DNA of 64,000 nucleotides from Candidatus Kerfeldbacteria bacterium (GTDB taxonomy: Bacteria; Patescibacteriota; Patescibacteriia; SBBC01), in the NCBI GenBank assembly GCA_016207275.1, contig JACQPY010000014.1, positions 6,035 through 70,034 of the forward strand. The letters are read 5' to 3'. The translations under genes and the position numbers were made by a program. A model generated the notes under the pieces. That model had not been told where the DNA came from. It saw only the letters and a program-made list of their open reading frames with translations, and did no database searches. Positions within the stretch are counted from its first letter, which is position 1, and each line of letters opens with the position of its first letter. Shown here piece by piece: positions 31,208-44,756 of the stretch.

Positions 31208-34183
31208 TCAGTAGTTCGGATCACGAAACTCGCAAATATCGCGGTAATCACAGAACTTACAGACCATGCCGGGCGTAGCGGCAAAGTTTCCCGACTGAAT
31301 TTTTTCGGCCACCGTCGTAATCCAAGCTTTGGTTTTCTCCAACTCGGCGTCGGATATCGGTACCTCCCGTTCCACGCCATCATCGAGGAAGTAGTAGCTC
31401 AAGCGCTGAACCTTGGCATTGAGAATATTCGGATCTTGGGCGGCCAGCGCATAGATCAGCAGCTGGTAACGGTCAGTGCTGTCCATGTCACGCGACCGGC
31501 CAGATTTATAATCAACAATGCCGACGGTTCGCTGGTGTGCGGCCGGATGAAGACCGAGCAGGTCAACCCGATCCATTTTTCCGGTGATCGTAAAGCGATC
31601 GAGCTTGAGGTTGAAGTCCTGTTCCAACCCTACCACCGCCGGCAGCTTCGCCGCCTGCTGCTCGTAGAATCGTTTCAGTGACTCGCGACCACGCACGCGG
31701 AACTGGTCACGCTGCTGTTCGCTCTCGTACCATTCGTCAACGAAGGACTCGTCGTAGAGTTGTAACAGTTCGTCAAGACTGACCGGCGATTGGCTCGTTG
31801 TCGGTGGTGGCGAGGAGCCAAATAAGTCAGCTTGTTTTGCCGCCCGTCGCTCCTGGACCACCTCGAAAAACCGCTGCAACGTTCGGTGCATGGACTCGCC
31901 GAACGACAGTAAGGCGTTACCACCGACGGGCACTTTCAGCACGTAGGCGTAGCGGAACTGCCACGGACATTTTTCGTAGGATCGCAACGCCGAAAAGCTG
32001 TACTTACTTCCCACAAACCGGACGTCGGCGGCGTCGACCGGCTGTCGCGGCTGAGGCTCAAGCTGGGCCAACCCTTTCGGTCGCCGCGGCGGTGATGCTT
32101 GGATAAAGCCGAGCTCGTACAGGAACCGCGACGGCTTTTTGACTCGCTGGCCGCCGTAGTCTTCGGCCGCGGTCAAAAATAGTCCGACCTTGGCTCGGGT
32201 CATGGCCACGTACAGCAGTCGGCGTTCCTCCTGCAGGTGCACATCGCCCGCCGGTAACGTTTCGCGGATTAACGCCTCGGGCACCTCAATCGGATCTTTC
32301 CGCTCAGTCGTCGGAAACCGGCGATCCACCAGCTGGACAATAAAGACGTAACTAAATTCCAAGCCTTTGGCCCCGTGAACGGTCATCAGCCGCACGCCGC
32401 CAGCATCCGGCTCGACGGTGCCCGCCAGACTGCCGGCATCACCCGACTCGAGCTTCAACTCGAATACTTCAAGGAAGTCGCGAACCGTCGGCTGGGCGTG
32501 TGATTTTTCAAACTCGGCGACTTCGTCCAAAAACTTTCGGATCGTGGCGACCCGCTCCACGGCGTGCGGTGTCGCCCGCTTACCCAACTCAGCCAGCACG
32601 CCGGCTCGCTTCAGGAAATCGAGCAGCACTTCCGAGACCTTGTGCGCCCGGGCAAACGTCGCTCCGTGCCTGATGACGCTCAGCAACTCGTCCATTCCTT
32701 TTCGTGATGAAGCGGAAATGTTCGGGACCGCTCGGCTTTGCACTAACGTTTGGTAGAGCGAAATTCCCTTCCGCCGAGCGTGAGCATTCAGTTCAACGAC
32801 ATCATCTGGCTTAAGAGCAAACGCCGGCAAGTTAAGCGTCCGAAACAACGCCGGACTCTCATGGTAATTATCAAGCAACCGTAAGTAGGCGACGAGGTCA
32901 AGAACGTCCGGCTTGCGGTACAGCCCTTTCGAAGCAAAAAACTGATACGGTACACCCGCTAATTCAAGGCTATGGGCAAACTGCTCGGCCTGGTCGTTAG
33001 CGCGAACCAAAATGGCGAACTCACGCCAATCCAAACCCGTCTTCTTCTGGAGCTCGATGATCCGCACGGTTACTCCTTGCGCTTCTTGCTCTTGCGTTTC
33101 GGCATGAACGAACTCAATCAAACCGTCTTCGGCGGCCACCGACTTAAGCTGCTTGGAAACCCGCACCTTGCCATCACGGAGCGCGACCTCCAGGCGGTTC
33201 GGATTGTTGAGCTGAATGAATTTGTAGGCCAGATCAAGAATGTTCTGACGCGAGCGGTAGTTGGTGGTCAGGACAACTTGTCGACAGTTCGGAAAATCTT
33301 TTCGGAATTCCAAAATATTAGAAATTGACGCGCCGCGGAACTTATAAACGGACTGGTCATCATCACCCACAACCGTCAGGTTGTTCTTCGGCGCGGCCAG
33401 CAGCTTAATCAGCTCGTACTGCGCCCAGTTCGTGTCCTGAAACTCATCCACTAAAACGTGCTGAAACTGCTGGCGGTACTGTTCAAGAACGGCCGGCCGT
33501 TTCTTGAACAGCTCCAGGGTGTAGGTAATCAGGGTACCAAAGTCCAAACTCGACGATTCCAACAACAGCTGACGGTAGGTGGCGTAGGCGTTGGCAACTT
33601 CTTCCAATCGCTTGGCTTCGCTAATTCCCGTTTCACCGCTGACGAACTGTTCCTGGCCGCGATCGAGCTTGTCCGATCGGGCGTAGGCCAGGTACGCTTC
33701 GGGCGTAATGTCTTCGTCCTCCAGACGCGAGAAGTGCTTGAGCAGCGCCCCAATGAACCGCGTCGGATTGCCCAGCGGTCGGTAGTAGTCGAGGTTGAAC
33801 CGATCGAAGTGGCGACGGATCAGCAGCCACTGCTCAGTTTGGTTAAGCAGCCGAAAGTCGTTCGGCAAACCGATGTCAATGGCGTGCTGTCGCAGGATGC
33901 GCTCGGCAAAGGCATGGAAGGTCGAGACCCACAAGTTAACGTAGCCGTACGGCAGCAGCCGGTCAACGCGCTCTTCCATTTCGGTGGCCGCTTTGTCCGT
34001 AAACGTCAGCGCCAAAATACCGTCGGTCGGCACTTTTTTCTCCAAAATTAACCACGCCACCCGCTGGGTAATGACCGTGGTTTTGCCCGTGCCAGCGCCG
34101 GCCACGATCAACAGCGGGCCGTCGCCGTGCTCGATCGCCTTTTTCTGCTCGGGATTGACGGTCGTTGGTGTCTCACCAGTCAT
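31208..34183 (-). CDS. UvrD/PcrA-family helicase fused to C-terminal RecB/Cas4-like PD-(D/E)xK nuclease with Cys cluster (AddA/AdnA-like)
   Basis: Walker A 'AGAGTGKTT' near N-terminus, UvrD motifs throughout; C-terminal 'EKCPWQFRYAYVLK…IVDYKSG…CKFCDYRDIC' nuclease + Fe-S cysteines. Confidence 0.8.
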   Translation of the reverse strand: MTGETPTTVNPEQKKAIEHGDGPLLIVAGAGTGKTTVITQRVAWLILEKKVPTDGILALTFTDKAATEMEERVDRLLPYGYVNLWVSTFHAFAERILRQHAIDIGLPNDFRLLNQTEQWLLIRRHFDRFNLDYYRPLGNPTRFIGALLKHFSRLEDEDITPEAYLAYARSDKLDRGQEQFVSGETGISEAKRLEEVANAYATYRQLLLESSSLDFGTLITYTLELFKKRPAVLEQYRQQFQHVLVDEFQDTNWAQYELIKLLAAPKNNLTVVGDDDQSVYKFRGASISNILEFRKDFPNCRQVVLTTNYRSRQNILDLAYKFIQLNNPNRLEVALRDGKVRVSKQLKSVAAEDGLIEFVHAETQEQEAQGVTVRIIELQKKTGLDWREFAILVRANDQAEQFAHSLELAGVPYQFFASKGLYRKPDVLDLVAYLRLLDNYHESPALFRTLNLPAFALKPDDVVELNAHARRKGISLYQTLVQSRAVPNISASSRKGMDELLSVIRHGATFARAHKVSEVLLDFLKRAGVLAELGKRATPHAVERVATIRKFLDEVAEFEKSHAQPTVRDFLEVFELKLESGDAGSLAGTVEPDAGGVRLMTVHGAKGLEFSYVFIVQLVDRRFPTTERKDPIEVPEALIRETLPAGDVHLQEERRLLYVAMTRAKVGLFLTAAEDYGGQRVKKPSRFLYELGFIQASPPRRPKGLAQLEPQPRQPVDAADVRFVGSKYSFSALRSYEKCPWQFRYAYVLKVPVGGNALLSFGESMHRTLQRFFEVVQERRAAKQADLFGSSPPPTTSQSPVSLDELLQLYDESFVDEWYESEQQRDQFRVRGRESLKRFYEQQAAKLPAVVGLEQDFNLKLDRFTITGKMDRVDLLGLHPAAHQRTVGIVDYKSGRSRDMDSTDRYQLLIYALAAQDPNILNAKVQRLSYYFLDDGVEREVPISDAELEKTKAWITTVAEKIQSGNFAATPGMVCKFCDYRDICEFRDPNY

Positions 34184-35143: not shown

Positions 35144-35677
35144 ATGAGAATTACGGTTCTCACGCTCGTCATCACGGCCTTCTTGGCTGCTTCGACAGCA
35201 AGCGGGCAAACGGTGCAGCCCAAGTCCCTCTTCTCCAGCGGCGGTCAACTCATGACCGACGGCGCGACGCAGGTCAACGCCAACCTCGGCGACGTGTTCA
35301 CCGGCGTGAGCTTCGGCGGCACGACCGAGGTCCAACACGGATTCTGGACGTCGCCGGAGAATCAGGTCATCGGAGTAGACGGGCCGAAGTTGACCCTCGT
35401 CTTCTACCTCAGCCAGGCCCAGCCGAACCCGGCTCGGACATCAACGACGATCGAATTCGGTCTGCCAGTCGAGGAGCCGGTCGTAACGCTCAACATCTAC
35501 GACGTCTCTGGTCGGCTCGTCCGGCGGCTCTTCAACGGCAAGATGAACGCCGGCGTGTTCCGCCAGACCTGGGATCTCCGGAACGATGCCGGAACGCGTA
35601 TGCCGGCGGGTCTGTACTTCTCCCGTCTGACAGCCAGCTCGTTCCGAGCGGTCCGCAAGATCGTCGTCATCAACTGA
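35144..35677 (+). CDS. secreted protein with T9SS-type C-terminal sorting (Por_Secre_tail-like) domain
   Basis: signal peptide; C-terminal 'QPNPARTSTTIEFGLPVEEPVVTLNIYDVSGRLVRRLFNGKMNAGVFRQTWDLRNDAGTRMPAGLYFSRLTASSFRAVRKIVVI' matches the CTD consensus (NPFNp.T.I.f.Lp…v.L.IYDvsGrlVr.L……G……WdG.d..G..v.sGvYf.rL). Confidence 0.6.
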   Translation: MRITVLTLVITAFLAASTASGQTVQPKSLFSSGGQLMTDGATQVNANLGDVFTGVSFGGTTEVQHGFWTSPENQVIGVDGPKLTLVFYLSQAQPNPARTSTTIEFGLPVEEPVVTLNIYDVSGRLVRRLFNGKMNAGVFRQTWDLRNDAGTRMPAGLYFSRLTASSFRAVRKIVVIN

Positions 35678-35868: not shown

Positions 35869-35906
35869 TTGACAGGTAAATTCAATGCTACTACAGTCTG
35901 TAGTAG
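35869..35906 (+). promoter_or_regulatory. promoter-like TTGACA plus CTACTAC-N5-GTAGTAG operator heading the thiol-redox/metal gene cluster
   Basis: TTGACA at 35869-35874; palindrome CTACTAC-agtct-GTAGTAG at 35888-35906 with same arms as the site at 29674-29692. Confidence 0.55.
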
Positions 35907-35947: not shown

Positions 35948-36367
35948 ATGACTGACCGTAACAGAGCACTCATTGGAATGTTCATACTGACGGCCATGCT
36001 CAGCCTAGCCGTTTTTTGGTCGAACGGCGGACATTTCGGCGACCATGAAGGAATCTGTGTGGCTGCTTCGATGCAAGGAGGCGTCTGTCCAGAATCAGCC
36101 ACCTTCGACTCGCTCATCTTTCATGGCAATGCGCTGAAAAGCTACATACAGAACGAGTCTGGAAATTCCTCGCTCTTACTGGCCTCGCTCGTCCTGACGC
36201 TTGTCCTCGCCCTTGTTCATGTTGCGTCAAAGCCGACTCTCTCGCAACCGATCGAAGTTGCCAGATACCGCGCACAATCCGTCTCCCCTAAACCACGAAC
36301 GCAGCAGTTCAACCGCTGGTTGGCCCTCCACGAAAGCAGCCCATCAGACTTTACTGGACGCGCCTAG
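35948..36367 (+). CDS. two-TM membrane protein with loop Cys pair, hypothetical
   Basis: start at MTDRNR (track ORF begins 35885 inside the operator); 'CVAASMQGGVC' between TM helices. Confidence 0.45.
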   Translation: MTDRNRALIGMFILTAMLSLAVFWSNGGHFGDHEGICVAASMQGGVCPESATFDSLIFHGNALKSYIQNESGNSSLLLASLVLTLVLALVHVASKPTLSQPIEVARYRAQSVSPKPRTQQFNRWLALHESSPSDFTGRA

Positions 36368-36497
36368 GTCGCTGTTGTAGCGGTTCATTTTCGCGCGTCC
36401 AAACGCCCTATCAGACGGGCGTTTTATGTATCAACGAATTAATCCCACCTGCCTATGACAACATACCGCTTCCCACAATCCATCCAGCGTCACGCAC

Positions 36498-37424
36498 ATG
36501 TCTAAACCTTGCCACCCCGACGGTCTTACCTGCACTCGGTTCGTCCAACCATCATCGACTCCGACCAGCAGTGTTACGAAGCCGTCTTATGTGCGAAGAT
36601 TCGGCCTCGGCTACTTCGTCCTGTTCGTTGTGGCCGCCGCCTTGCTGATCGCCAACGCCACTATGCTCCAGGCCATGAACAGCGACGTACAAACCCAAAA
36701 ACGTCAGGCTGAAGAAGCGATCAAACCGGCCGAGATCGAGGTGACCGCCGTCACTGCTCCGTCGTGCCAAAACTGCTTCAACCTGATGAATCTCCTCGGT
36801 AGTCTGAGCGGGAATGAGAAAATCAAAGTCGTGAAAACCGACACCGTTGACTACACCTCCGCCGCCGGAGCGTCCATGGTCAAGCAGTACAACCTCGAGC
36901 GGGCGCCGGCCTTCATTATTAAGGGACAAACGGAGAAACTGTTGTCGGTGTTGCCGGCCGTGAAATCGTACGGCCAGTTGGCGGGCAATGACTTTGCCGG
37001 CAAGAACACGCCAGCGCCGTACCTCGAGATTGCCACCGGCCAGGTTCGTGGAGAGTTCCAGGCGACTTACCTGACCGAGAAGCAATGTTCGGAATGCTAC
37101 GACCCGACAGTCAACCGCCAGGCCCTCCAGCAGCTCGGCATGCGGCCGACTTCGGAAACAACCGTCGACCGCGCTGATCCCGACGGACAGAATCTGGTCA
37201 AGCAGTACAAACTGACGACCACGCCGACCGTTATTCTGACCGGCGATCTTGCCGCCTACGTCAACTTCAATCAGGTCTGGAAGAAGGTGGGCACGATCGA
37301 GCCGGACGGCGCCTACGTCTTCCGCAGCGGCCAAGATCTGATGGGCACCTACTACGACTTGGCTACCAAAAAAGTCATCAAACCGAAAAATGACGAGACC
37401 AACACCAACACTTCAACGCCGTAA
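36498..37424 (+). CDS. membrane-anchored protein with two thioredoxin-like CxxC modules
   Basis: N-terminal TM; 'PSCQNCF…APAFIIKG' and 'CSECYD…TTPTVILTG' (CxxC plus cis-Pro-region like thioredoxin fold) duplicated. Confidence 0.55.
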   Translation: MSKPCHPDGLTCTRFVQPSSTPTSSVTKPSYVRRFGLGYFVLFVVAAALLIANATMLQAMNSDVQTQKRQAEEAIKPAEIEVTAVTAPSCQNCFNLMNLLGSLSGNEKIKVVKTDTVDYTSAAGASMVKQYNLERAPAFIIKGQTEKLLSVLPAVKSYGQLAGNDFAGKNTPAPYLEIATGQVRGEFQATYLTEKQCSECYDPTVNRQALQQLGMRPTSETTVDRADPDGQNLVKQYKLTTTPTVILTGDLAAYVNFNQVWKKVGTIEPDGAYVFRSGQDLMGTYYDLATKKVIKPKNDETNTNTSTP

Positions 37425-37447
37425 TCGTATCAACTAACAAGGATAAA

Positions 37448-37726
37448 ATGACCATGGACCACCCAACTCCTCCCCCCGCTGAAAAACCGGCAATTCGACC
37501 TGAACCGGAGCCGAACCGAAGCTTCACCCTCCGCATCCCCAAACCGAACTGGCAAGTCATTGCGCTCATCCTGATCGCGGTGATCGCCGGATTCCAGACA
37601 ATTCAATTGGCCCGGCTCAAAGGCAATGTGACAGCCAAAGTGTCAGCCGCCACAACGACTGCGCCGACGCCGGCTGCATCCGCCGGTTCCGATTCGGGGC
37701 TCCAATCGCAAGTCGGCGGTTGCTAA
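37448..37726 (+). CDS. small membrane protein (92 aa) with C-terminal Cys
   Basis: Pro-rich N-terminus, one TM, Ala/Thr/Ser-rich tail ending '…QVGGC'. Confidence 0.4.
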   Translation: MTMDHPTPPPAEKPAIRPEPEPNRSFTLRIPKPNWQVIALILIAVIAGFQTIQLARLKGNVTAKVSAATTTAPTPAASAGSDSGLQSQVGGC

Positions 37727-37732
37727 ACGCGT

Positions 37733-38515
37733 ATGATTGACTTCCATCACAACCGTTCCAAAGCGCCGCGACCGCAATGGTTTGCGCCGGTCGATCGACA
37801 GACCAACGAGCGTCTTGCTCGCACGGTCGTCTGGCTGGTGACTGCGACCTTGGCAACCAATCAGTTCTTGATTGCCTCGATTTCCCCGAAGTCGGCAGGC
37901 GCCTCTCCCCTGGCATCGCTGAAATCGATGCTGGGGATGAAGACGGCCTCGGCCATGGTCATCGTCGGGCCGAAGCTCAATTCCGACGGCAAAACCACCA
38001 GCCTGGTTCAGCAACCGACCATTTCCAGCGTACCGGCCAATCCGAAATCAGGCGATGACCTAACTGATGCTAAGGCCGTCATGCTGGCCACTGGTCGGCC
38101 GCCCTACGCTCCCGATGGCGTCTCCTTCGACGATCCGATCAATGCCCAGAATGTCTGGGTAGCCTACGAACAGAGCATCACGCTCAGCGGCAGTCTGGAA
38201 ACTCGCTACAACAACCTGATCAACGGCTTCACCTGCAACTACTGCTGCGGCGAAGCGGCCATTGTCACGCGCAACCGGCAGTGCGGGTGCGCCCACGCCA
38301 AAGCCGCCCGCGGGTTCTTCAAGTACATGCTGCAAACCTTCGGCGACCAGTACAGCGACGAACAACTGATGGGCGAAGCCTTCCGCTGGCAGGCGATCTG
38401 GTACCCGAAAGGCGCGGTCGAAGACTACCTGCTGGCTACCGGCAAGGCGAATGTCATCGGTCACGCTCCGCACGGCGGCGCTGGTGCTGACAACATGCAC
38501 GGATTAACCACGTAG
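37733..38515 (+). CDS. Cys-rich hypothetical protein (260 aa)
   Basis: N-terminal TM; 'CNYCCGEAAIVTRNRQCGCAHAKAA' cluster; no family recognised. Confidence 0.45.
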   Translation: MIDFHHNRSKAPRPQWFAPVDRQTNERLARTVVWLVTATLATNQFLIASISPKSAGASPLASLKSMLGMKTASAMVIVGPKLNSDGKTTSLVQQPTISSVPANPKSGDDLTDAKAVMLATGRPPYAPDGVSFDDPINAQNVWVAYEQSITLSGSLETRYNNLINGFTCNYCCGEAAIVTRNRQCGCAHAKAARGFFKYMLQTFGDQYSDEQLMGEAFRWQAIWYPKGAVEDYLLATGKANVIGHAPHGGAGADNMHGLTT

Positions 38516-38522
38516 CAGTTAC

Positions 38523-38969
38523 ATGATCAAACGATCAACCATCATCGGCACCATCAGCACGGTCGGCTTACTGGTCGTCTACCTGTCGGTTGTCAGCGCT
38601 TTGTCCGGTTGGTCCACGACCGCAGAGCAATGGTCGAGTTTCTGGCCGTATCTGGTCGGCTTGGCGATCGGTTTCGGTGTCCAGGTCGGGCTCTACGCAT
38701 ACCTTCGCCAGGCCGTTCACCGTAGTCAGTCAACCGGCAAAGTCGTGGCGCTAACTGGTACGACCTCAACCGCCGCCATGGTCTCCTGCTGCACCCACTA
38801 CCTCGTCAACCTCCTGCCCGTTCTCGGCGCCTCGGGTATCGCCACCTTCGTCGGCCAGTATCAGGTCAATCTGTTCTGGGTCGGACTGGCCGCTAACGCC
38901 GCTGGTCTGGCGTACCTGGCTTCGCGGATCATGAAATTCAGGAAACATCTGCCAGCCATGGCTGCTTGA
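38523..38969 (+). CDS. polytopic membrane protein with CC motif (148 aa), hypothetical
   Basis: 4 TM helices, 'VSCCTHYLVNLLP'. Confidence 0.45.
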   Translation: MIKRSTIIGTISTVGLLVVYLSVVSALSGWSTTAEQWSSFWPYLVGLAIGFGVQVGLYAYLRQAVHRSQSTGKVVALTGTTSTAAMVSCCTHYLVNLLPVLGASGIATFVGQYQVNLFWVGLAANAAGLAYLASRIMKFRKHLPAMAA

Positions 38970-39008
38970 GCGCCTTGCTCATTCCTTACCAACGAGGTAC
39001 GTAAATCT

Positions 39009-39659
39009 ATGCCTGACACCCAAACATCATCGTTCCGCGATCCGGTCTGCGGCATGAGCGTCAACCCGGCCACTGCCACGTTCACCGCCGACCACGCCGG
39101 GGCGACCGTCTACTTCTGCTCGCCCGGCTGCCGCGACCAATTTCTGGCCAATCCAGAATCCTTCACCACCTCTCCAAAAACAACGGTGGTGACGATCCGG
39201 CCGGAAGTTCTCTACGCCGTCCTGGGGCTCATCGCCGTTATCCTAGTCATTTTCGCCTTTCGACCAGGCCCGCCAAGCTCGTCGGTCAGCACCGGATCAA
39301 CCGCGGCGGTTACCGGCACGCCAGCTGGCCAGGACCAGGTGGTCGATGACGGCTCCGGCGGGGTAATTACGTCAGCCAGTCTAAACCGCTCAGCCAGCAC
39401 CCCTGATCAACTGGTCATCACCGTGTCCCTCAATACCCACTCTGTCGACCTGACCGACTTCCGCCCCGTTGACCAAGTCCGCCTGCGAATGGCTGCCGGC
39501 GACGAACTCGAACCGCTGGCTGTCAGCGGTCAGGGCGAGATCAGCTCGCACCATCAAAACTACCGTCTGACCTTTCCGCGGCCGGGCAGCGCGGAGGCCT
39601 CTGTCGTGGTGAAAAACGTGGCTGGCGTAACCGAACGTAAGCTGCCAATCCAACTATGA
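39009..39659 (+). CDS. YHS/TRASH metal-binding domain protein with TM anchor
   Basis: 'DPVCGMSVNP…YFCSPGCRDQFLANP' canonical YHS/TRASH Cys motif, then TM helix and Ser/Thr-rich domain. Confidence 0.65.
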   Translation: MPDTQTSSFRDPVCGMSVNPATATFTADHAGATVYFCSPGCRDQFLANPESFTTSPKTTVVTIRPEVLYAVLGLIAVILVIFAFRPGPPSSSVSTGSTAAVTGTPAGQDQVVDDGSGGVITSASLNRSASTPDQLVITVSLNTHSVDLTDFRPVDQVRLRMAAGDELEPLAVSGQGEISSHHQNYRLTFPRPGSAEASVVVKNVAGVTERKLPIQL

Positions 39660-39661
39660 AT

Positions 39662-39820
39662 CCCGTTAGACGGCTCACGCATCAACGTATACTCATTGAA
39701 GGTTACGATCATACTTACAAGACTAACCATCTAATCCCGTTAGACGGTCCTGCAGTTGGGCCCGACAGTGGGATAGGCGTAGATCTTCAGTTTCTTAACC
39801 GTCTAACGGGACTAACGGGA
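39662..39820. repeat. CCCGTTAGA-family element, compound copy 5 (two left arms, one right arm plus extra half-arm)
   Basis: cccgttagacgg at 39662-39673 and 39736-39747; ccgtctaacggg 39799-39810; ctaacggg 39813-39820 abutting ATG of next gene; flanked by atgaa direct repeat. Confidence 0.75.
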
Positions 39821-40695
39821 TGAACCTGCTCGTCAGCGCCTCGATCGTCGCGTCGTTCGTGGCTGGGGTGGCCGCACTGTTCGCACCGTGCTGCATCACG
39901 GTGCTCCTACCGTCGTACCTCGGCTCAATCTTCCGCGAACGGAAGGCCGTCTTCTTGATGACCTTCATCTTCTTCCTCGGCATCCTGACGGTCTTTTTCC
40001 CCTTGGGATTGGGGTCGGCAGCGTTCGGCCAGTTCTTGAGCCGCAACCACACGCTCATCTTCTCGATCGGCGGCGCCTTCTTACTCATCCTTGGACTCGG
40101 CCTGCTCCTCGGCAAGAGCTTCTCCCTCCCCTTCCACGTCAACCCCACCCTCAAGAACCACCACCCCTGGTCAGTCTTCACGCTCGGCATCTTCTCCGGC
40201 ATTGCCACCACCTGCTGTGCGCCGGTTTTAGCCGGCGTCTTAGCCCTGGCCGCCCTGCCCGGCTCGATCTTTTGGGGCGCCGCTTACACCGTCAGCTACG
40301 TCCTCGGCATGGTCACGCCGCTGTTCATCCTGGCGTCGGTGCTCGATCGCACCAAACTCACCCAGCGATTCATGGCCTGGCGGCGCAGGTGGACGTACTC
40401 GATTGGCAAACTGGTTGTCAACCTCAGCGTGGCCGAAGCGATGGCCGGCGTCATCTTCGTTGGCATGGGCCTGACAACGATCTGGCTGGCAATGAACAAC
40501 CGCCTGGCCGTCCACTCACGCTACCAGGTTGACGTCAACATCTTCCTGACCAAAGTGCTCCGGAGCATCAAGGGTGCCGTGACCGCCATTCCCGAAGTTG
40601 TCTGGGCAGTCGTGCTGATCCTCGCGCTCATCGGCATTATCGCCCGAACACGTTATCTTATTCGTCAAGAAAAACACTATGACCATAAACCATAA
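39820..40695 (+). CDS. DsbD_2/CcdA-like polytopic membrane protein with CC pairs in TM1 and TM4
   Basis: 'FAPCCITVLLP' and 'TTCCAPVLAGV' in TM helices; ~8 TM; family assignment tentative. Confidence 0.45.
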   Translation: MNLLVSASIVASFVAGVAALFAPCCITVLLPSYLGSIFRERKAVFLMTFIFFLGILTVFFPLGLGSAAFGQFLSRNHTLIFSIGGAFLLILGLGLLLGKSFSLPFHVNPTLKNHHPWSVFTLGIFSGIATTCCAPVLAGVLALAALPGSIFWGAAYTVSYVLGMVTPLFILASVLDRTKLTQRFMAWRRRWTYSIGKLVVNLSVAEAMAGVIFVGMGLTTIWLAMNNRLAVHSRYQVDVNIFLTKVLRSIKGAVTAIPEVVWAVVLILALIGIIARTRYLIRQEKHYDHKP

Positions 40696-41332
40696 AGGCA
40701 TCTCCGTCGGGACGTCGATTGTTCTCTCCGCGATCATTCTCGTGGTCGGCGGACTCATCTATCTGAGTGGCCGTGAACGGTCGAGCCCGAGCAGTTCGAC
40801 CGCGGCCGCTGGCGACACCGCCGACCATCACGGCCTGGCCAGCAGCGGTCCGACCTCGAACCTCCAAAACCTCATCAACCAAGCTGCGCCCGACTTCTCG
40901 CTGACCGATCACAACGGCGTGACCTATTCCCTGGCTAGTCTGAAAGGGAAAAACGTGGTCTTATTCTTCAACGAGGGTGTCATGTGTTACCCGGCCTGCT
41001 GGAATCAGGTTGCTCTCTTTGGCGCGGATGATCGGTTCAAGGGCGACGACGTCGTTGCGCTGTCGGTGGTGGTGGATAGTCAACAGGAATGGAATGAAGC
41101 AGTCCGTCAGCTTCCCGAGCTGGCCCAAGCCACGGTCGTTCATGATAACGGCGCAAAAGTATCCTCCGCCTACGGAGTGCTGACCACCAAGTCCTCAATG
41201 CACTACGGCCAGCTGCCGGGCCACACCTACGTCGTGATCGACCAGAACGGCATCATCCGCCACGTCTACGACGATCCGAACATGGCCATTCACAATGACC
41301 AGCTCGTTGAAGAGATCGCCAAACTGTCGTAA
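40679..41332 (+). CDS. membrane-anchored redoxin/TlpA-like thioredoxin-fold protein
   Basis: N-terminal TM; 'FSLTDHNGVTYSLASLKGKNVVLFFNEGVMCYPAC' AhpC/TSA-redoxin-like arrangement (non-canonical CxxxC). Confidence 0.5.
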   Translation: MTINHKGISVGTSIVLSAIILVVGGLIYLSGRERSSPSSSTAAAGDTADHHGLASSGPTSNLQNLINQAAPDFSLTDHNGVTYSLASLKGKNVVLFFNEGVMCYPACWNQVALFGADDRFKGDDVVALSVVVDSQQEWNEAVRQLPELAQATVVHDNGAKVSSAYGVLTTKSSMHYGQLPGHTYVVIDQNGIIRHVYDDPNMAIHNDQLVEEIAKLS

Positions 41333-41540: not shown

Positions 41541-41768
41541 TCACGACCCCCTGGCAGGGTTGAGACAGATATATTCTCGAGTATTCTCAAGGTCACGTTC
41601 GGTGCGGAGAACGTGTTCATGGAACGATCGTTGCCAAAGCGACGCGCCGGGTGTTCTTTGCATACGATTCACCGCAGCGGCTGAAAACGTTTTGAAACCC
41701 CGGATGATTTCTGTAAGTGGGTGCTGGACGGTGCCACGCCCCCTCCGTAGCTGCGGGTGTATAACCAT
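41541..41768 (-). pseudogene. C-terminal fragment of IS200/IS605-type (RAYT-like, Y1) transposase
   Basis: 'EIIRGFKTFSAAAVNRMQRTPGASLWQRSFHEHVLRTERDLENTREYICLNPAR' matches the conserved C-terminal half (…LKG.ss..i..…..WQr.f.dhviR.e.dl…r.YI..NP); HuH N-terminal half absent. Confidence 0.5.
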
Positions 41769-41903: not shown

Positions 41904-43019
41904 GTGCCGACCCTCCTCATCGCCCTCCGCAATCTGTTCGGCGAACGCAGCCGGTTCGTCATCACCGTAACTGGCGTGACGTTCTCGGTTGTGCTAATCA
42001 TCATTCTTCAGGCTCTCTACCAGGGCTGGAGCTTTAAGACCGGCCAGTACATCCGGGCCCAGGACGCCGACCTATGGGTAGCCCAGGCCGGCTCGCGCGA
42101 CATGTTCCACAGCATTTCGTTGCTGCCGGCAAGCGCTGCCAGCGCGATTGCTTCCCTCGACGGAGTGGCCAAGGTCAGGCCGTTCGTCGGCAAACGCGTC
42201 GGCCTCCACATTGATGACAAGGACCGCGTCCTCTACCTCGTCCGCGACGACGGGAGTTCGGATCGGACTGGCCCGGTACGCCTGGAGCAAGGGGGATCAC
42301 CACCGCGACCCGGCGAAATCATAGTCGACCGTATTTTCGCCAACAACAACGGACTGGTGATCGGCGACAGCCTCGAGATCGGCAATCAACGGTTCACCAT
42401 CGCCGGACTGGCCAGCGGCGGCGATTTGGTCACGCTCTCGTTCGCTTTCATCAACGCCGAGGACGCTGACCGAATGTTCCAACTCCCCAACCTGGTCAAC
42501 TACTTCTTAGTCAAGCTCAAGCCAGCGACTGACCAACCGCCTATCGCCGGGAGCATTACCTCGCTGTTCGATAACGCCACTGTCTTTCCGAAAGACGAAT
42601 TCGTCAGCATCAACGGCGAATTCATCCGTGAATCGTTCCTGCCGATCATCTTCGTCCTGGTCCTCATCGGCGTGGCCGTCGGCATCGTTGTCATCGGGCT
42701 GACTATCTTCACTTCCACGATCGACAAATCGCGCGAGTTCGGCGTGCTGAAGGCGATTGGCGCAAGCGGAACGCACCTCAACCGTATCGTCGCTATCCAA
42801 TCGCTCGTCGCCAGCCTCTTCGGATACACAGCTGGAACGATAGTGGCAATCCTCCTCGGCTTGGTAGTCGGCAGGTACGTTCCAGAGTTCGTCGTCCTCT
42901 TCCGCCCGATTGACTTTGCCTGGATTTTTGCCGTGGCCGTGGCCATGGCCCTGCTGGCCGCCCTCATTCCGATCCGACGGATCGCCAGCATCAACCCGGC
43001 TGACGTTTTCAAAGCCTAG
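41904..43019 (+). CDS. ABC transporter permease, FtsX/MacB-like
   Basis: N-terminal TM, ~200-aa extracytoplasmic domain, C-terminal 3-TM FtsX-like region; GTG start. Confidence 0.75.
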   Translation: MPTLLIALRNLFGERSRFVITVTGVTFSVVLIIILQALYQGWSFKTGQYIRAQDADLWVAQAGSRDMFHSISLLPASAASAIASLDGVAKVRPFVGKRVGLHIDDKDRVLYLVRDDGSSDRTGPVRLEQGGSPPRPGEIIVDRIFANNNGLVIGDSLEIGNQRFTIAGLASGGDLVTLSFAFINAEDADRMFQLPNLVNYFLVKLKPATDQPPIAGSITSLFDNATVFPKDEFVSINGEFIRESFLPIIFVLVLIGVAVGIVVIGLTIFTSTIDKSREFGVLKAIGASGTHLNRIVAIQSLVASLFGYTAGTIVAILLGLVVGRYVPEFVVLFRPIDFAWIFAVAVAMALLAALIPIRRIASINPADVFKA

Positions 43020-43020
43020 C

Positions 43021-43758
43021 ATGGTCGAGCTTCAAAAGATTACCAAAATCTTCGGCCGGGGAGAAACCTCCGTTCACGCCGTCAACAACGTCAGCCTGAA
43101 CATTCAGCCGGGCGAGATCGTCGTCATTATGGGACCGTCGGGATCAGGCAAGACCACACTCGTCTCAATTGCGGGCGGGTTGATGAAACCAACTGATGGA
43201 ACTATCATCATCGACGGCACCGACATCACCGCGAAAAACGAGCGCCAGCTGCCGAAGATTCGCCTGACCACCATGGGTTTCATCTTCCAGTCGTTTAACC
43301 TGCTACAGAATCTAACGGCTATGGAAAACGCGGCCATTCCCCTGCTCCTCGCTGGCCAGTCAAAGCAGACGGCCTTTGATAAAAGCCGGGCCCTGCTTGA
43401 ACGGCTCAACCTCAGCCATCGGTCTCACGCTCGTCCGCGAGAACTGTCCGGCGGCGAGCAGCAGCGCGTAGCCATTGCCCGGGCCCTCGTGAACAACCCA
43501 AAAGTCATTTTCGCCGACGAACCGACTGCCAACCTTGACCGGGCGATCGGCCACCAGGTCATGCAGCTCCTCTGCTCGGTCGGCTGCGAGCAGGGCAAGA
43601 GCGTCATCATCGTCAGCCACGACGAACGCATTAAGGATGTTGCCCACCGGGTGATTTACATCGAGGATGGTAAGCTCATACGCGAGGAACCGGGTCAGCA
43701 CAACCGCATCTGCACCATGCGCGCTCACTCGTACCAATTGCGCGACCAACGCGCTTGA
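43021..43758 (+). CDS. ABC transporter ATP-binding protein (MacB/LolD-like)
   Basis: 'GPSGSGKTT', 'LSGGEQQRVAIARAL', 'IFADEPTANLD'; starts 2 nt after permease stop. Confidence 0.9.
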   Translation: MVELQKITKIFGRGETSVHAVNNVSLNIQPGEIVVIMGPSGSGKTTLVSIAGGLMKPTDGTIIIDGTDITAKNERQLPKIRLTTMGFIFQSFNLLQNLTAMENAAIPLLLAGQSKQTAFDKSRALLERLNLSHRSHARPRELSGGEQQRVAIARALVNNPKVIFADEPTANLDRAIGHQVMQLLCSVGCEQGKSVIIVSHDERIKDVAHRVIYIEDGKLIREEPGQHNRICTMRAHSYQLRDQRA

Positions 43759-44288: not shown

Positions 44289-44756
44289 ATGAAACTTCGC
44301 CCTGCCTACACGACTACCCTCGTCCTCGCCAGCTTCGGCTTGCTCTTGTCCGGCTACCTGTCGTACTGGAACCTGTGGGGCCCGAGCTGCCATCAAGGGC
44401 CGCTCAGCTGGCTGGTCAGCTGCGGCGGGCCGCAGAAAGTCCTGATCTTCGGTTTGCCGACCTGCGTCTACGGTTTCTTCATGTACCTGGCCGTAGCCGT
44501 CACCGCCTTGATTGGATTGACCAGCAACAAACACCGCGGAACGACCGCTACCCTCATCGGCCTCGGATCGCTCGGTACGGCCTTTGCTGGCGGATTAATG
44601 ATCTACGAAATCTTTGTTTTGAAACTGACCTTCACCACGGTGCCAGCCTGCGTCTACGGCTTGGTCCTCTACCTCGGCATCCTCACTGCCGCCATCGTCG
44701 GTCGACGGTCAATCAGTCGCTCTCCAGCGTCACCGCCGTCGGATAGGCTACCTTGA
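44289..44756 (+). CDS. VKOR-like membrane protein candidate (4 TM, conserved Cys)
   Basis: loop Cys pair 'SCHQGPLSWLVSCGG' followed by 'VLIFGLPTCVYGFFMY' resembling the VKOR loop-Cys/'S.Y..fGiP' region; canonical CxxC not evident, so tentative. Confidence 0.3.
   Translation: MKLRPAYTTTLVLASFGLLLSGYLSYWNLWGPSCHQGPLSWLVSCGGPQKVLIFGLPTCVYGFFMYLAVAVTALIGLTSNKHRGTTATLIGLGSLGTAFAGGLMIYEIFVLKLTFTTVPACVYGLVLYLGILTAAIVGRRSISRSPASPPSDRLP

What the first reader, a model, noticed from the sequence alone, without database searches (positions are those of the whole stretch)
35948..41332. Eight-gene plus-strand cluster of Cys-rich membrane and thioredoxin-fold proteins with a YHS/TRASH metal-binding protein
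The consecutive genes are:
- a loop-Cys two-TM protein;
- a protein with two thioredoxin-like CxxC modules;
- a 92-aa TM peptide ending in Cys;
- a 260-aa protein with a CNYCCG…CGC cluster;
- a CC-motif 4-TM protein;
- a YHS/TRASH (CGM…FCSPGC) protein;
- a CC-pair DsbD_2/MerT-like 8-TM protein;
- a membrane-anchored redoxin.

The combination of a Cu/Hg-type YHS domain, CC-pair transmembrane helices and several periplasmic thioredoxin folds suggests an envelope system for heavy-metal (Cu(I)/Hg(II)) handling or disulfide relay. Several members have no recognisable family.
Basis: partly seen in the sequence, partly recalled or inferred. Interest (0 to 1): 0.7.

Follow-up and report, generated by a model that had tools for sequence, protein, structure and literature searches.

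The report
Envelope thiol–copper relay gene cluster
A groundwater Kerfeldbacteria (CPR) genome carries a conserved operon of cysteine-rich envelope proteins: an uncharacterised trio found only in CPR bacteria and DPANN archaea, next to a copper-associated membrane module, which together probably manage copper and thiol chemistry outside the cell.

Summary
Synteny is very strong, so the cluster is not a chance grouping.

The locus splits into two modules.

**Module A (g2, g3, g4)**
- g2 is a membrane-anchored protein with two thioredoxin units, PDO-like.
- g3 is a 92-aa anchored peptide. Every homologue ends in ...VGGC.
- The trio is adjacent and co-oriented in 52 of 54 related loci. All are CPR, plus one Woesearchaeote.
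- In 106 of 150 distant relatives the "LPxMVGGC" tail is fused to the g4-like domain itself.
- In DPANN archaea the trio shares an operon with an HMA-type P1B ATPase.

**Module B (g5 to g8)**
- It comprises a 4-TM "CC" protein, a YHS protein with an external His3 β-sandwich, a CC-type DsbD_TM protein, and a CxxxC redoxin.
- In a proteobacterial MAG, the YHS-g5 fusion and a g6C-like gene lie inside a copper-resistance island.

Best reading: an extracytoplasmic, reductant-fed thiol and Cu(I) handling system. It works like Scs, MerT/P or CopC/D but belongs to none of them. Cytochrome c maturation and mercury resistance are not supported. The function is inferred from context, not demonstrated.

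The parts
35948..36367 (+). g1: 139-aa (160 aa from the ATG at 35885) two-TM protein with a loop Cys pair (C37, C47). A lineage-specific accessory.
   Evidence: ORF. TM segments and Cys positions. No Pfam or NCBIfam hit. Homologues occur in only 5 Kerfeld-type loci out of 54, always directly upstream of g2. A promoter-like site lies at 35869-35897.
36498..37424 (+). g2: membrane-anchored extracytoplasmic protein with two thioredoxin-fold units, each carrying CxxC (CQNC, CSEC). PDO-like.
   Evidence: Both CxxC pairs are at least 90% conserved in 50 homologues. Family hits are weak: Thioredoxin_3 (E 2.5e-4) and TIGR02187 PDO (E 1.9e-4). The closest solved relative is P. furiosus protein disulfide oxidoreductase 1a8l, E 0.0066. 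A homologue lies within 1.5 kb of g4 in 52/54 loci. Relatives carry 2 or 3 units.
37448..37726 (+). g3: 92-aa single-TM peptide with a Ser/Thr/Ala-rich linker and an invariant C-terminal ...VGGC-COOH (a terminal-Cys 'arm').
   Evidence: All 52 homologues end in VGGC and share an 'FQTxQL' TM motif. Homologues lie within 1.5 kb of g4 in 52/54 loci. The same 'LPxMVGGC' tail is fused to g4-like domains in 106/150 distant relatives. Separate g3-like peptides also occur in DPANN loci.
37733..38515 (+). g4: 260-aa TM-anchored extracytoplasmic domain with invariant C168-x-x-C171-C172 ... C184-x-C186-x-H188, and a His-rich tail (H244, H247, H256). The signature protein of module A.
38523..38969 (+). 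g5: 148-aa polytopic membrane protein with a conserved 'S-C-C-x-H-Y-L' motif in a TM helix.
   Evidence: Motif conservation. More than 605 homologues were found, many fused to an N-terminal YHS domain, in CPR and other phyla. The YHS-g5 fusion P0280 lies in a Cu-resistance island. Homologues occur in 41/54 loci.
39009..39659 (+). g6: YHS domain (N-terminal, cytoplasmic by position) + TM segment + external β-sandwich domain (g6C) with conserved His144, His181 and His182 ('LNTHSxxL', 'GGHH').
39820..40695 (+). g7: DsbD_TM/CcdA-family membrane protein of a 'CC' subtype (FAPCCITVL, ATTCCAPVL).
   Evidence: PF02683, E 2.7e-9, 37.1 bits against a cut-off of 27.1. 21 of 24 members of the 260-310-aa subfamily carry both CC pairs. 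The ~225-aa and >=390-aa subfamilies, which in most loci that have them lie directly downstream of g4, have single Cys residues. A DsbD_TM gene occurs in 40/54 loci, and within 3 kb of g4 in 36.
40679..41332 (+). g8: membrane-anchored extracytoplasmic AhpC/TSA-Redoxin-fold protein with an invariant C-Y-P-A/S-C (CxxxC) motif and 'H-x-G-x-x-x-G-H'.
   Evidence: Pfam AhpC-TSA E 3e-19 and Redoxin E 1.5e-16. SCO1-SenC scores only 13.5 bits against a cut-off of 22.8. Motifs are conserved in all 23 homologues. The closest solved relatives are archaeal Bcp-type Prx-like proteins, E 4e-6. The gene overlaps the end of g7.

Best explanation
The locus encodes an extracytoplasmic thiol- and copper-handling system made of two co-localised modules. 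Function is inferred from context throughout; nothing here was measured.

**Module B (g5 to g8)**
- It forms a Cys/His ligand path across the membrane:
  - a cytoplasmic YHS domain;
  - an intramembrane Cys-Cys pair (g5, and the CC-type DsbD_TM protein g7);
  - an external His3 β-sandwich (g6C).
- A membrane-anchored CxxxC redoxin (g8) accompanies it.
- g7 belongs to the DsbD_TM family, so it probably supplies electrons from cytoplasmic thioredoxin.

**Module A (g2, g3, g4)**
- It is a set of outward-facing proteins specific to CPR and DPANN.
- It consists of a PDO-like multi-thioredoxin (g2), a CcmH-like domain with a Cys5-His cluster (g4), and a flexible membrane-tethered arm ending in a free C-terminal cysteine (g3).
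- I infer that the terminal-Cys arm shuttles either Cu(I) or a mixed disulfide between the g4 cluster and partner proteins, while g2 keeps these thiols reduced or reshuffled.

**Net function (inferred)**
Capture and hand over Cu(I) at the outer face of the membrane, and repair copper-induced thiol damage.

**Shown versus inferred**
- Shown: the anatomy, the motif conservation, the synteny, the fusion of the arm to the g4 domain, and the copper-gene context.
- Inferred: the ligand (Cu), the direction of transfer, and the electron route.
For: 1. The trio g3-g2-g4 is adjacent and co-oriented in 52/54 loci from many CPR lineages and one Woesearchaeote. The two exceptions are truncated contigs.
2. 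The g3 tail 'LPxMVGGC' is the C-terminus of the g4-like domain itself in 106/150 cluster representatives. This is a fusion link between g3 and g4.
3. C168, C171, C172, C184, C186 and H188 are invariant across 70 relatives at about 25% identity.
5. DsbD_TM genes lie within 3 kb of g4 in 36/54 loci. From established knowledge of the CcdA/DsbD family, this implies an outward supply of reductant.
6. Copper context:
   - YHS domain.
   - g5 is frequently fused to YHS.
   - YHS-g5 and a g6C-like gene lie between a multicopper oxidase, CopB, CusF, a cupredoxin and an LTXXQ protein.
   - In the archaeal operon L071, g4-GGC, g3, g2 and an HMA-HMA P1B ATPase have overlapping gene ends. L070 is similar.
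   - P1B ATPases occur in 13/54 CPR loci and cupredoxins in 14/54. Cupredoxins also flank the Micrarchaeia locus.
   - BlaI-family repressors (the family that includes CopY, from my own knowledge) with M56 sensors lie upstream in 24-25/54 loci.
8. Precedent: Scs proteins couple a DsbD-like transporter and thioredoxin-fold proteins to copper tolerance, and ScsC binds Cu(I) (PMC10907172, PMC8900818, PMC5524982).
Against: - No biochemical or expression data exist for any member. The literature searches found nothing on this family.
- The window itself holds no P1B ATPase, cupredoxin, BlaI or BlaR1. For this genome the copper link rests on YHS and on context in other genomes.
- A Cys5-His cluster could bind Zn or an Fe-S cluster, or be purely redox-active.
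- By sequence g8 is closest to Bcp-type peroxiredoxins, which points to peroxide defence rather than to metals.
- P1B ATPases in CPR loci are seldom close to g4: within 3 kb in 1 of the 13.
Confidence: 0.5

Rival explanations
1. General extracytoplasmic protein-disulfide isomerase or reductase machinery, a Dsb analogue for CPR and DPANN cells that lack quinones. g2 would act on secreted or pilus proteins, g4 and g3 would be its membrane-tethered redox partners, and copper genes would be neighbours only because both deal with envelope stress.
For: g2 is PDO-like with conserved CxxC pairs. g4 has a CcmH-like thiol-oxidoreductase fold. DsbD_TM genes are adjacent. DsbA-like genes occur in 14 loci and in the Micrarchaeia locus. 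A VKOR-family gene lies 3 kb downstream in the window.
Against: The distribution looks patchy rather than universal, which is odd for a housekeeping foldase, although the search patterns limit that count. The trio is co-operonic with HMA P1B ATPases in archaea. It is tightly linked to the YHS/g5/g6C module, which sits in a proteobacterial Cu island. BlaI/BlaR1-type inducible regulation lies upstream. VKOR is not conserved near the trio: 0/54 loci.
Confidence: 0.2
2. Envelope peroxide or sulfenic-acid defence. The DsbD_TM protein (g7) would feed electrons to a membrane-anchored peroxiredoxin-like g8, as ScsB-TlpA-PprX does in Caulobacter. Module A would repair oxidised cysteines.
For: g8 scores best against AhpC/TSA and Bcp-type Prx. 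There is precedent for a DsbD-family-fed envelope peroxiredoxin (PMC3322552).
Against: g8 lacks the canonical Prx PxxxT/SxxC signature. It carries an invariant CxxxC motif plus His residues instead. g8 is present in only 17/54 loci. This reading does not explain YHS, the CC membrane proteins, the His3 domain or the P1B ATPase linkage.
Confidence: 0.1
3. A sulfane-sulfur or thiosulfonate carrier system. The g3 C-terminal GGC arm would carry covalently bound sulfur, like the GGCGG arm of SoxY, with thioredoxins and CcdA as reactivators in the manner of SoxV, SoxW and SoxS.
For: The Gly-flanked cysteine on a flexible C-terminal arm parallels SoxY (PMC6067878). Thioredoxin-fold and CcdA-type partners are present.
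Against: Among the Pfam-identified families that recur in the loci, none is SoxZ-, SoxB-, SoxAX-, rhodanese- or SQR-like. g3 has no SoxY Ig-like domain. The neighbours are metal genes, not sulfur genes.
Confidence: 0.07
4. Mercury (or another soft-metal) uptake and detoxification in the manner of MerT/MerP. CC pairs in TM helices would pass Hg(II) inward.
For: CC pairs occur in TM helices of g5 and g7. A YHS/TRASH-type domain is present. External thiol proteins are present.
Against: No MerA-, MerR-, MerP- or MerB-like family recurs in the 54 loci or occurs in the window, although I did not search with Mer proteins directly. Where the neighbours are metal genes, they are copper-type: a multicopper oxidase, CopB, CusF, cupredoxins and HMA ATPases.
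Confidence: 0.05
5. Cytochrome c maturation (System I/II-like: CcdA + ResA + CcmH).
For: g7 hits the DsbD_TM model, which Pfam names 'Cytochrome C biogenesis protein transmembrane domain'. g8 hits ResA weakly. g4 has a CcmH-like fold.
Against: No WWD-motif heme-handling protein (CcsA, CcmC or CcmF) occurs in the 54 loci or in the window, and no CxxCH ORF of at least 80 aa occurs in the window. g4 gave no hit to any Pfam family, CcmH included, at E<=0.1 (homologues at E<=1). From general knowledge, CPR and DPANN genomes generally lack c-type cytochromes.
Confidence: 0.02

Closest known systems
Scs (suppressor of copper sensitivity) system, ScsABCD, of Salmonella, Proteus and Caulobacter
   Different: The proteins are not orthologous. 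Here there is no ScsB-type multidomain protein and no ScsC/DsbG-like protein. Instead there is a PDO-like multi-Trx protein, a CcmH-like Cys5-His domain, a terminal-Cys arm peptide, YHS and CC membrane proteins. The host is a CPR cell without a classical periplasm (the latter from my own knowledge).
CcmH (System I cytochrome c maturation thiol reductant), PDB 2hl7
   Different: There is no sequence-level membership: no Pfam hit, hhalign probability 5%, and no Foldseek hit. g4 adds a third Cys, a CxCxH motif in place of CcmH's 'DSNA', an N-terminal β-hairpin region and a His-rich tail. Heme-lyase partners and cytochrome substrates are absent.
SoxY sulfur-carrier C-terminal arm (GGCGG)
   Same: A Gly-flanked cysteine at the very C-terminus of a flexible arm, accompanied by CcdA-like and thioredoxin-like helper proteins (PMC6067878; helper proteins from my own knowledge).
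   Different: g3 is a TM-anchored peptide with no SoxY fold and no SoxZ partner. The motif is VGGC-COOH. The neighbours are metal and redox genes, not sulfur-oxidation genes.
MerT/MerP and CopC/CopD-type ligand-relay metal transport
   Same: An external metal-binding domain, intramembrane Cys pairs and a cytoplasmic Cys-rich acceptor. Here these are g6C (His3), the g5 and g7 CC pairs, and YHS. g5 and g6C occupy a CopC/CopD-like position beside a multicopper oxidase in a Cu island.
   Different: No Pfam hit of the eight proteins was to a MerT, MerP, CopC or CopD family. The direction of transport and the substrate are untested.
Pyrococcus furiosus protein disulfide oxidoreductase (PDO, 1a8l)
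   Same: Tandem thioredoxin-fold units, each with its own CxxC. It is the closest solved relative of g2 (E 0.0066; TIGR02187 hit).
   Different: g2 is membrane-anchored and extracytoplasmic, has 2-3 units, and scores far below the family cut-off (20.9 bits against 185).

Membership tests
YHS domain (PF04945) | Pfam model above the gathering score, with conserved Cys ligands | tested here: met
   g6 residues 11-53 score 42.4 bits against a cut-off of 30.3, E 7e-11. C37 is invariant and C14 and C41 are nearly invariant in 24 homologues.
DsbD_TM / CcdA (PF02683) | Pfam model above the gathering score, with one conserved Cys in each of two TM helices | tested here: met
   g7 scores 37.1 bits against 27.1. 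Cys residues sit at the expected helices but as CC pairs (FAPCC, TTCC) in 21/24 members of the subfamily. Electron transfer itself is not testable here.
Peroxiredoxin (AhpC/TSA, Bcp/PrxQ) | Fold match plus the catalytic PxxxT/SxxC signature | tested here: not met
   The fold and Pfam match are met (69.5 bits; PDB Bcp-like E 4e-6). The active-site region reads 'FFNEG(L/V)MCYP(A/S)CWNQ' in all 23 homologues, with no Pro or Thr/Ser at the signature positions and CxxxC instead. NCBIfam Prx equivalogs score far below their cut-offs.
Sco1/SenC copper chaperone | Pfam SCO1-SenC above threshold, plus CxxxC and a distal His | tested here: not met
   The CxxxC motif and conserved His residues are present. 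PF02630 scores only 13.5 bits against a cut-off of 22.8. This is a resemblance, not membership.
CcmH / NrfF | Sequence match to the family, and the three-helix fold with LRCxxC | tested here: inconclusive
Cytochrome c maturation (System I/II) | Heme-handling WWD proteins (CcsA, CcmC, CcmF) and CxxCH apocytochromes | tested here: not met
   A regex for the WWD motif found none in the ORFs of the 54 loci or the window. No CxxCH ORF of at least 80 aa occurs in the window.
mer operon (MerT/MerP/MerA/MerR) | Presence of mercuric reductase, MerR and MerP next to CC-bearing transporters | tested here: not met
   No such family was noted among the 30 most widespread neighbour families (only some were scanned against Pfam) or among the window neighbours scanned. 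This was not an exhaustive HMM search with Mer models.
Protein disulfide oxidoreductase PDO (TIGR02187) | Two Trx units with two CxxC motifs, scoring above the NCBIfam cut-off | tested here: not met
   The architecture is met. The score is 20.9 bits against a cut-off of 185, and phmmer against 1a8l gives E 0.0066. g2 is PDO-like, not a member of the equivalog.
SoxY | C-terminal GGCGG on a SoxY Ig-like domain paired with SoxZ | tested here: not met
   g3 ends in VGGC and consists of a TM helix plus a low-complexity linker. No Pfam hit. Among the Pfam-identified neighbour families, none is a Sox family.
DUF5643 (PF18705), for g6C | Pfam match | tested here: inconclusive
   14 of 24 homologues match at E<=1, best 7e-9. 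The window's own g6 does not match.
PCYCGC domain (PF13798) | Pfam match or profile similarity to g4 | tested here: not met
   No Pfam hit for g4 or its relatives. hhalign of the g4 family against the Micrarchaeia PCYCGC protein gives probability 0.4%. A PCYCGC gene is, however, the immediate upstream neighbour of the g4-like gene in L067.
Scs copper-sensitivity suppressor system | Copper-induced operon of a DsbD-like transporter plus Trx-fold proteins that confers copper tolerance | not testable with these tools
   The component logic is analogous, but induction and phenotype cannot be tested in silico. No Pfam or NCBIfam hit of the eight proteins was to an Scs family.

The most novel reading that the evidence does not exclude
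The trio g2, g3 and g4 is a previously undescribed extracytoplasmic machine restricted to CPR bacteria and DPANN archaea. A membrane-tethered 'swinging arm' ending in a free C-terminal cysteine (LPxMVGGC-COOH), encoded either on the enzyme itself or as a separate mini-protein, services a CcmH-like Cys5-His centre. This would be a new solution for moving Cu(I) or redox equivalents at the cell surface of ultra-small, quinone-less, episymbiotic cells. It could be their missing envelope thiol and copper homeostasis system.
Probability: 0.3. Interest if true: 0.8.

Novelty: new variant of a known kind. Interest (0 to 1): 0.66.

Why it matters
CPR bacteria and DPANN archaea are a very large, almost uncultured part of microbial diversity. 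How they manage envelope redox chemistry and metal stress is essentially unknown, since they lack respiratory chains and quinones (general knowledge).

This locus defines a conserved, testable gene set:
- about 236 clusters at 50% identity for the signature protein;
- 54 species-level genomes with the same gene trio;
- no Pfam or NCBIfam family for g3 or g4 (g2 has only sub-threshold thioredoxin/PDO-like hits), and no literature found on the trio.

Its anatomy is unusual: a terminal-cysteine arm that is either fused to the enzyme or encoded separately.

The analysis also gives the widespread YHS/4-TM-CC/His3 module a copper-island context. That module is mis-labelled 'Cu+-exporting ATPase' in some source annotations.

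If the mechanism holds, it adds a new architecture to the set of thiol- and metal-relay systems that includes DsbD, Scs, Mer, CcmH and SoxY.

Tried and rejected
- **Family searches.** Pfam and NCBIfam found nothing for g1, g3, g4 or g5.
- **PDB sequence and profile searches.** Nothing for the g4 family or for g6C.
- **Fold searches.** Foldseek against PDB gave no significant hit for the g4 model. The afdb50 library was unavailable.
- **Is g5 the detached N-terminal domain of g4?** I tested whether g5 corresponds to the N-terminal 4-TM 'CPVCG' domain that most CPR g4 proteins carry. BLASTP gave E 0.012 and there were jackhmmer cross-hits, but hhalign gave 1.7% probability, so I rejected homology. 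No such domain is encoded elsewhere in the window.
- **Is g4 related to the PCYCGC domain?** Rejected: hhalign probability 0.4%.
- **Is g4 a CcmH family member by sequence?** Not supported.
- **Structure prediction of g6.** I redid it with database homologues.
- **RNA genes.** Rfam and tRNA scans of the window found nothing.
- **Terminator scan.** Uninformative: 8 sites against 5.5 expected.
- **Literature.** Searches for the family, for CPR thiol or copper systems and for PCYCGC found no description.
- **Cytochrome c maturation and mercury resistance.** Considered and rejected.
- **VKOR as part of the system.** Rejected, because it is not conserved near the trio (0/54 loci).

Full report
**1. 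Observation**

The window is a Candidatus Kerfeldbacteria (CPR/Patescibacteria) MAG. The g4 protein is 100% identical to NCBI 'HY567_03255 [Candidatus Kerfeldbacteria bacterium]'. All eight plus-strand ORFs exist at 35948-41332 with the described features.

| Gene | Coordinates | Size | Features |
|---|---|---|---|
| g1 | 35948..36367 | 139 aa | 2 TM, loop Cys37 and Cys47 |
| g2 | 36498..37424 | 308 aa | two CxxC motifs |
| g3 | 37448..37726 | 92 aa | ends in Cys |
| g4 | 37733..38515 | 260 aa | CNYCCG...CGCAH |
| g5 | 38523..38969 | 148 aa | SCC motif |
| g6 | 39009..39659 | 216 aa | YHS |
| g7 | 39820..40695 | 291 aa | two CC pairs |
| g8 | 40679..41332 | 217 aa | redoxin |

Pfam and NCBIfam confirm three of the family assignments:
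- YHS in g6 (E 7e-11).
- DsbD_TM in g7 (E 2.7e-9).
- AhpC-TSA and Redoxin in g8 (E 3e-19 and 1.5e-16).

g2 gets only weak thioredoxin and PDO hits. g1, g3, g4 and g5 get none.

The gaps from g2 to g6 are 6-39 bp, and g7 and g8 overlap. A -35/-10-like site lies at 35869-35897, just before the g1 ATG at 35948.

**2. Synteny and two modules**

A profile of the g4 family retrieved 54 loci from species-representative genomes. They come from Kerfeld-, Uhr-, Davies-, Levy-, Roizman-, Woese-, Pace- and Komeilibacteria, WWE3 and unclassified Patescibacteria, plus one Woesearchaeote. I ran jackhmmer with the window proteins against six-frame ORFs of these loci.

| Gene or family | Loci (of 54) | Notes |
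|---|---|---|
| g3 | 52 | within 1.5 kb of g4, same strand |
| g2 | 52 | within 1.5 kb of g4, same strand |
| g5 | 41 | |
| DsbD_TM | 40 | 36 within 3 kb of g4 |
| g6C | 31 | |
| YHS | 18 | |
| g8 | 17 | |
| g1 | 5 | |

The two loci without g3 and g2 are truncated contigs.

Other Kerfeldbacteria keep the full eight-gene order. The locus therefore resolves into two modules:
- Module A: g2, g3 and g4.
- Module B: g5, g6 (YHS + g6C), the CC-type DsbD_TM protein g7, and g8.

In WWE3 and Daviesbacteria, module B appears as g5 - g6C - g8 - g7 - g8 - small YHS protein.

Other recurrent neighbours:
- BlaI-type repressor, 24 loci, with an M56 BlaR1-type sensor protease, 25 loci, immediately upstream of g3.
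- DUF1573, 19 loci.
- DsbA-like thioredoxin, 14 loci.
- DUF3105, 14 loci.
- P1B-type ATPase with a His-rich N-terminus, 13 loci.
- Cupredoxin, 14 loci.

**3. Module A anatomy**

*g3.* All 52 homologues end in ...VGGC-stop. This follows a Ser/Thr/Ala-rich linker and a TM helix carrying 'FQTxQL'.

*g4.*
- Identity is 55-81% across CPR lineages.
- In most CPR it carries an extra N-terminal 4-TM domain with 'CPVCG' in a helix and a CxxC in the following loop. The Kerfeld form lacks this domain.
- A profile search of 1.84 billion representatives found 236 clusters.
- Of the 150 listed, 145 keep CxxCC.
- 106 of the 150 end in '...LPxMVGGC' on the same polypeptide.
- Across 70 diverse members, C168, C171, C172, C184, C186 and H188 are invariant.

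The g3 arm and the g4 domain are therefore parts of one functional unit.

*DPANN archaea.* The trio recurs there, in some loci with the arm both fused and encoded separately:
- L067, Micrarchaeia: BlaI - PCYCGC protein - g4-GGC - g3-like - 3xCxxC g2-like, flanked by cupredoxins, an M56 protease and DsbA.
- L069: DsbD_TM - ... - g4-GGC - g3-like - g2-like.
- L071 (contig also encodes Topo VI and PCNA): wHTH regulator - g4-GGC - g3-like - g2-like - HMA-HMA P1B ATPase, with overlapping gene ends.
- L070: similar, with an HMA ATPase.

**4. Folds**

*g4.* The AF2 model of the g4 homologue P0037 has pLDDT above 90 over the ectodomain.
- I confirmed the 2hl7 sequence.
- hhalign aligns 'RYxxLxxxxxCxYCCG' with 'RFRNLTQELRCPKCQN'. 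This puts C168/C171 of g4 on the CcmH active-site CxxC, but at only 5% probability.
- Foldseek found nothing, and neither did the PDB profile searches.
- The CcmH-likeness is therefore a fold-level lead, not membership.

*g2.* Its closest solved relative is the two-unit P. furiosus PDO.

*g6.* The AF2 model has pLDDT 86. It shows a small YHS unit, one TM helix and an Ig-like sandwich.
- H144 and H182 are invariant and H181 is nearly invariant across the CPR-wide alignment; all three are invariant in the closer set.

*g8.* It keeps an invariant CYP(A/S)C (CxxxC) motif and two His residues. By sequence it is nearest to archaeal Bcp-type Prx-like proteins, but it lacks the Prx signature.

*DsbD_TM subtypes.* Three accompany the system:
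- a ~225-aa canonical CcdA type;
- a type of at least 390 aa with an N-terminal CxxC domain;
- the 260-310-aa CC type seen in the window.

In most loci that carry them, the first two types lie directly after g4.

**5. Copper context of module B**

g5 has more than 605 homologues, in CPR and other phyla. Many are fused to an N-terminal YHS domain. In a Pseudomonadota groundwater MAG, the YHS-g5 fusion P0280 is followed by a g6C-like protein ('LDTH...GSHHRKGILKF'). The pair lies between a multicopper oxidase, an LTXXQ metal-resistance protein, CusF, a cupredoxin and CopB.

**6. Mechanism**

*Shown:*
- an outward-facing set of thiol proteins;
- a terminal-Cys arm physically tied to a Cys5-His domain;
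- CcdA/DsbD-family transporters next to them;
- a YHS / intramembrane CC / external His3 series;
- recurrent copper-gene neighbours.

*Inferred:*
- Electrons enter through the DsbD_TM protein, which is the established role of that family. They keep g8, g2, g4 and g3 reduced.
- The arm cysteine and the g4 cluster bind Cu(I), or form mixed disulfides, and pass it on.
- Module B provides a ligand path across the membrane, like MerT/MerP or CopC/CopD.

The overall role would parallel the Scs copper-tolerance thiol system (PMC10907172, PMC8900818, PMC5524982, PMC3322552). The arm parallels the GGCGG arm of SoxY (PMC6067878). I put this at about 0.5. The ligand and the direction of transfer are untested.

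**7. Rivals**

- A general Dsb-like foldase system (0.2).
- Envelope peroxide defence through g7 and g8 (0.1).
- A SoxY-like sulfur carrier (0.07).
- Mercury handling (0.05).
- Cytochrome c maturation (0.02). No WWD heme-handling protein occurs in the 54 loci or the window, and no CxxCH ORF of at least 80 aa occurs in the window.

**8. Novelty**

g3, g4 and g5 have no Pfam or NCBIfam family. Sources call them 'hypothetical protein', or mislabel g5 as 'Cu+-exporting ATPase'. Four literature searches found no description.

The kind of system, an envelope thiol and metal relay, is known. The components and the fused-or-separate terminal-Cys arm on a CcmH-like Cys5-His domain are not. I file it as a new variant of a known kind, with interest of about 0.66.

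**9. Limits**

- Prevalence cannot be estimated, because the locus scan used CPR-clade peptide patterns.
- The window itself has no copper ATPase, cupredoxin, BlaI or BlaR1.
- Model coordinates could not be inspected for Cys-Cys distances.
- All functional statements are contextual inference.

Noticed in passing
window 44289-44756 (+): A VKOR-family protein (PF07884, E 1.5e-7) lies 3 kb downstream. Both places where a membrane CxxC would be expected read C-V-Y-G (GLPTCVYG, VPACVYG). It keeps only a loop Cys pair (C34, C45). It is not conserved next to the cluster in relatives (0/54 loci).
   Followed up: partly
window 41541-41768 (-): A 75-aa ORF lies in the 570-bp gap after g8. From memory, its sequence (…FHEHVLR…YICLNP…) looks like the C-terminal part of an IS200/REP-type Y1 transposase. 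Pfam gave no hit at E<=0.001. The Kerfeld relative L005 also has a 210-aa gene with a faint Y1_Tnp hit downstream of the cluster, there between the FtsX and ABC ATPase genes.
   Followed up: partly
window 41904-43758 (+): A MacB-type ABC transporter (MacB_PCD + FtsX permease, then an ABC ATPase) follows the cluster. FtsX homologues also occur near the cluster in 4 of the 54 loci, and downstream in L005. The pairing recalls the FtsX-type ABC transporter plus thioredoxins of the Campylobacter fetMP-fetABCDEF iron and copper locus (PMC10783030).
   Followed up: partly
window 35144-35677 (+): The gene directly upstream of g1 encodes a 177-aa protein with FlgD_ig and Por_Secre_tail (T9SS C-terminal sorting) domains. 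That is unexpected in a CPR genome.
   Followed up: no
L009:5334-6362, L003:7266-8348 (BlaR1-like M56/M48 proteins upstream of g3): The BlaR1-type sensors paired with BlaI upstream of the trio have no penicillin-binding domain. Instead they carry Cys/His-rich stretches, for example 'CSVDNVCRQECHH' at the C-terminus of L009 and 'VCGCANYF' in L003. These could form a metal or thiol sensor.
   Followed up: no
L067:9058-9297; N-terminus of P0144 (L070:6001-6648): A small conserved module, 'C..P.GY...W..HM.HHPDQY..C', appears as a separate 79-aa protein in the Micrarchaeia locus and as the N-terminal part of a g4-like protein in another archaeal locus. It is a further Cys/His-rich accessory of the system.
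   Followed up: no
L009:9260-9697, L070:5428-5826, L067:9307-9699: Another recurrent accessory is a ~130-145-aa polytopic membrane protein with CxxxC in its first helix (CQTTC, CHSLC, CHASC). It occurs in 26 of 54 CPR loci and in DPANN loci, and has no Pfam family. In Kerfeld-type loci g5 (SCC) occupies the equivalent position.
   Followed up: partly
L067:6480-6986: A PCYCGC-domain protein (PF13798) lies immediately upstream of the g4-like gene in Micrarchaeia. Its C-terminal half (CVTCQN...GKSLKEIRDYIDRKY) also looks CcmH-like by eye. hhalign did not link it to g4.
   Followed up: partly
L062:6874-6996: A 40-aa Met/Trp/Gly-rich TM peptide (MWHDGMSGWWGMGWMG...) is encoded between the multicopper oxidase and the YHS-g5 fusion in the proteobacterial copper island.
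   Followed up: no
window 46884-51671 (-): A 1595-aa predicted surface protein with CarboxypepD_reg, SdrD_B, SpaA-like and TIG repeats lies nearby. An AddA-like UvrD/PD-(D/E)XK helicase-nuclease lies at 31208-34183 (-).
   Followed up: no
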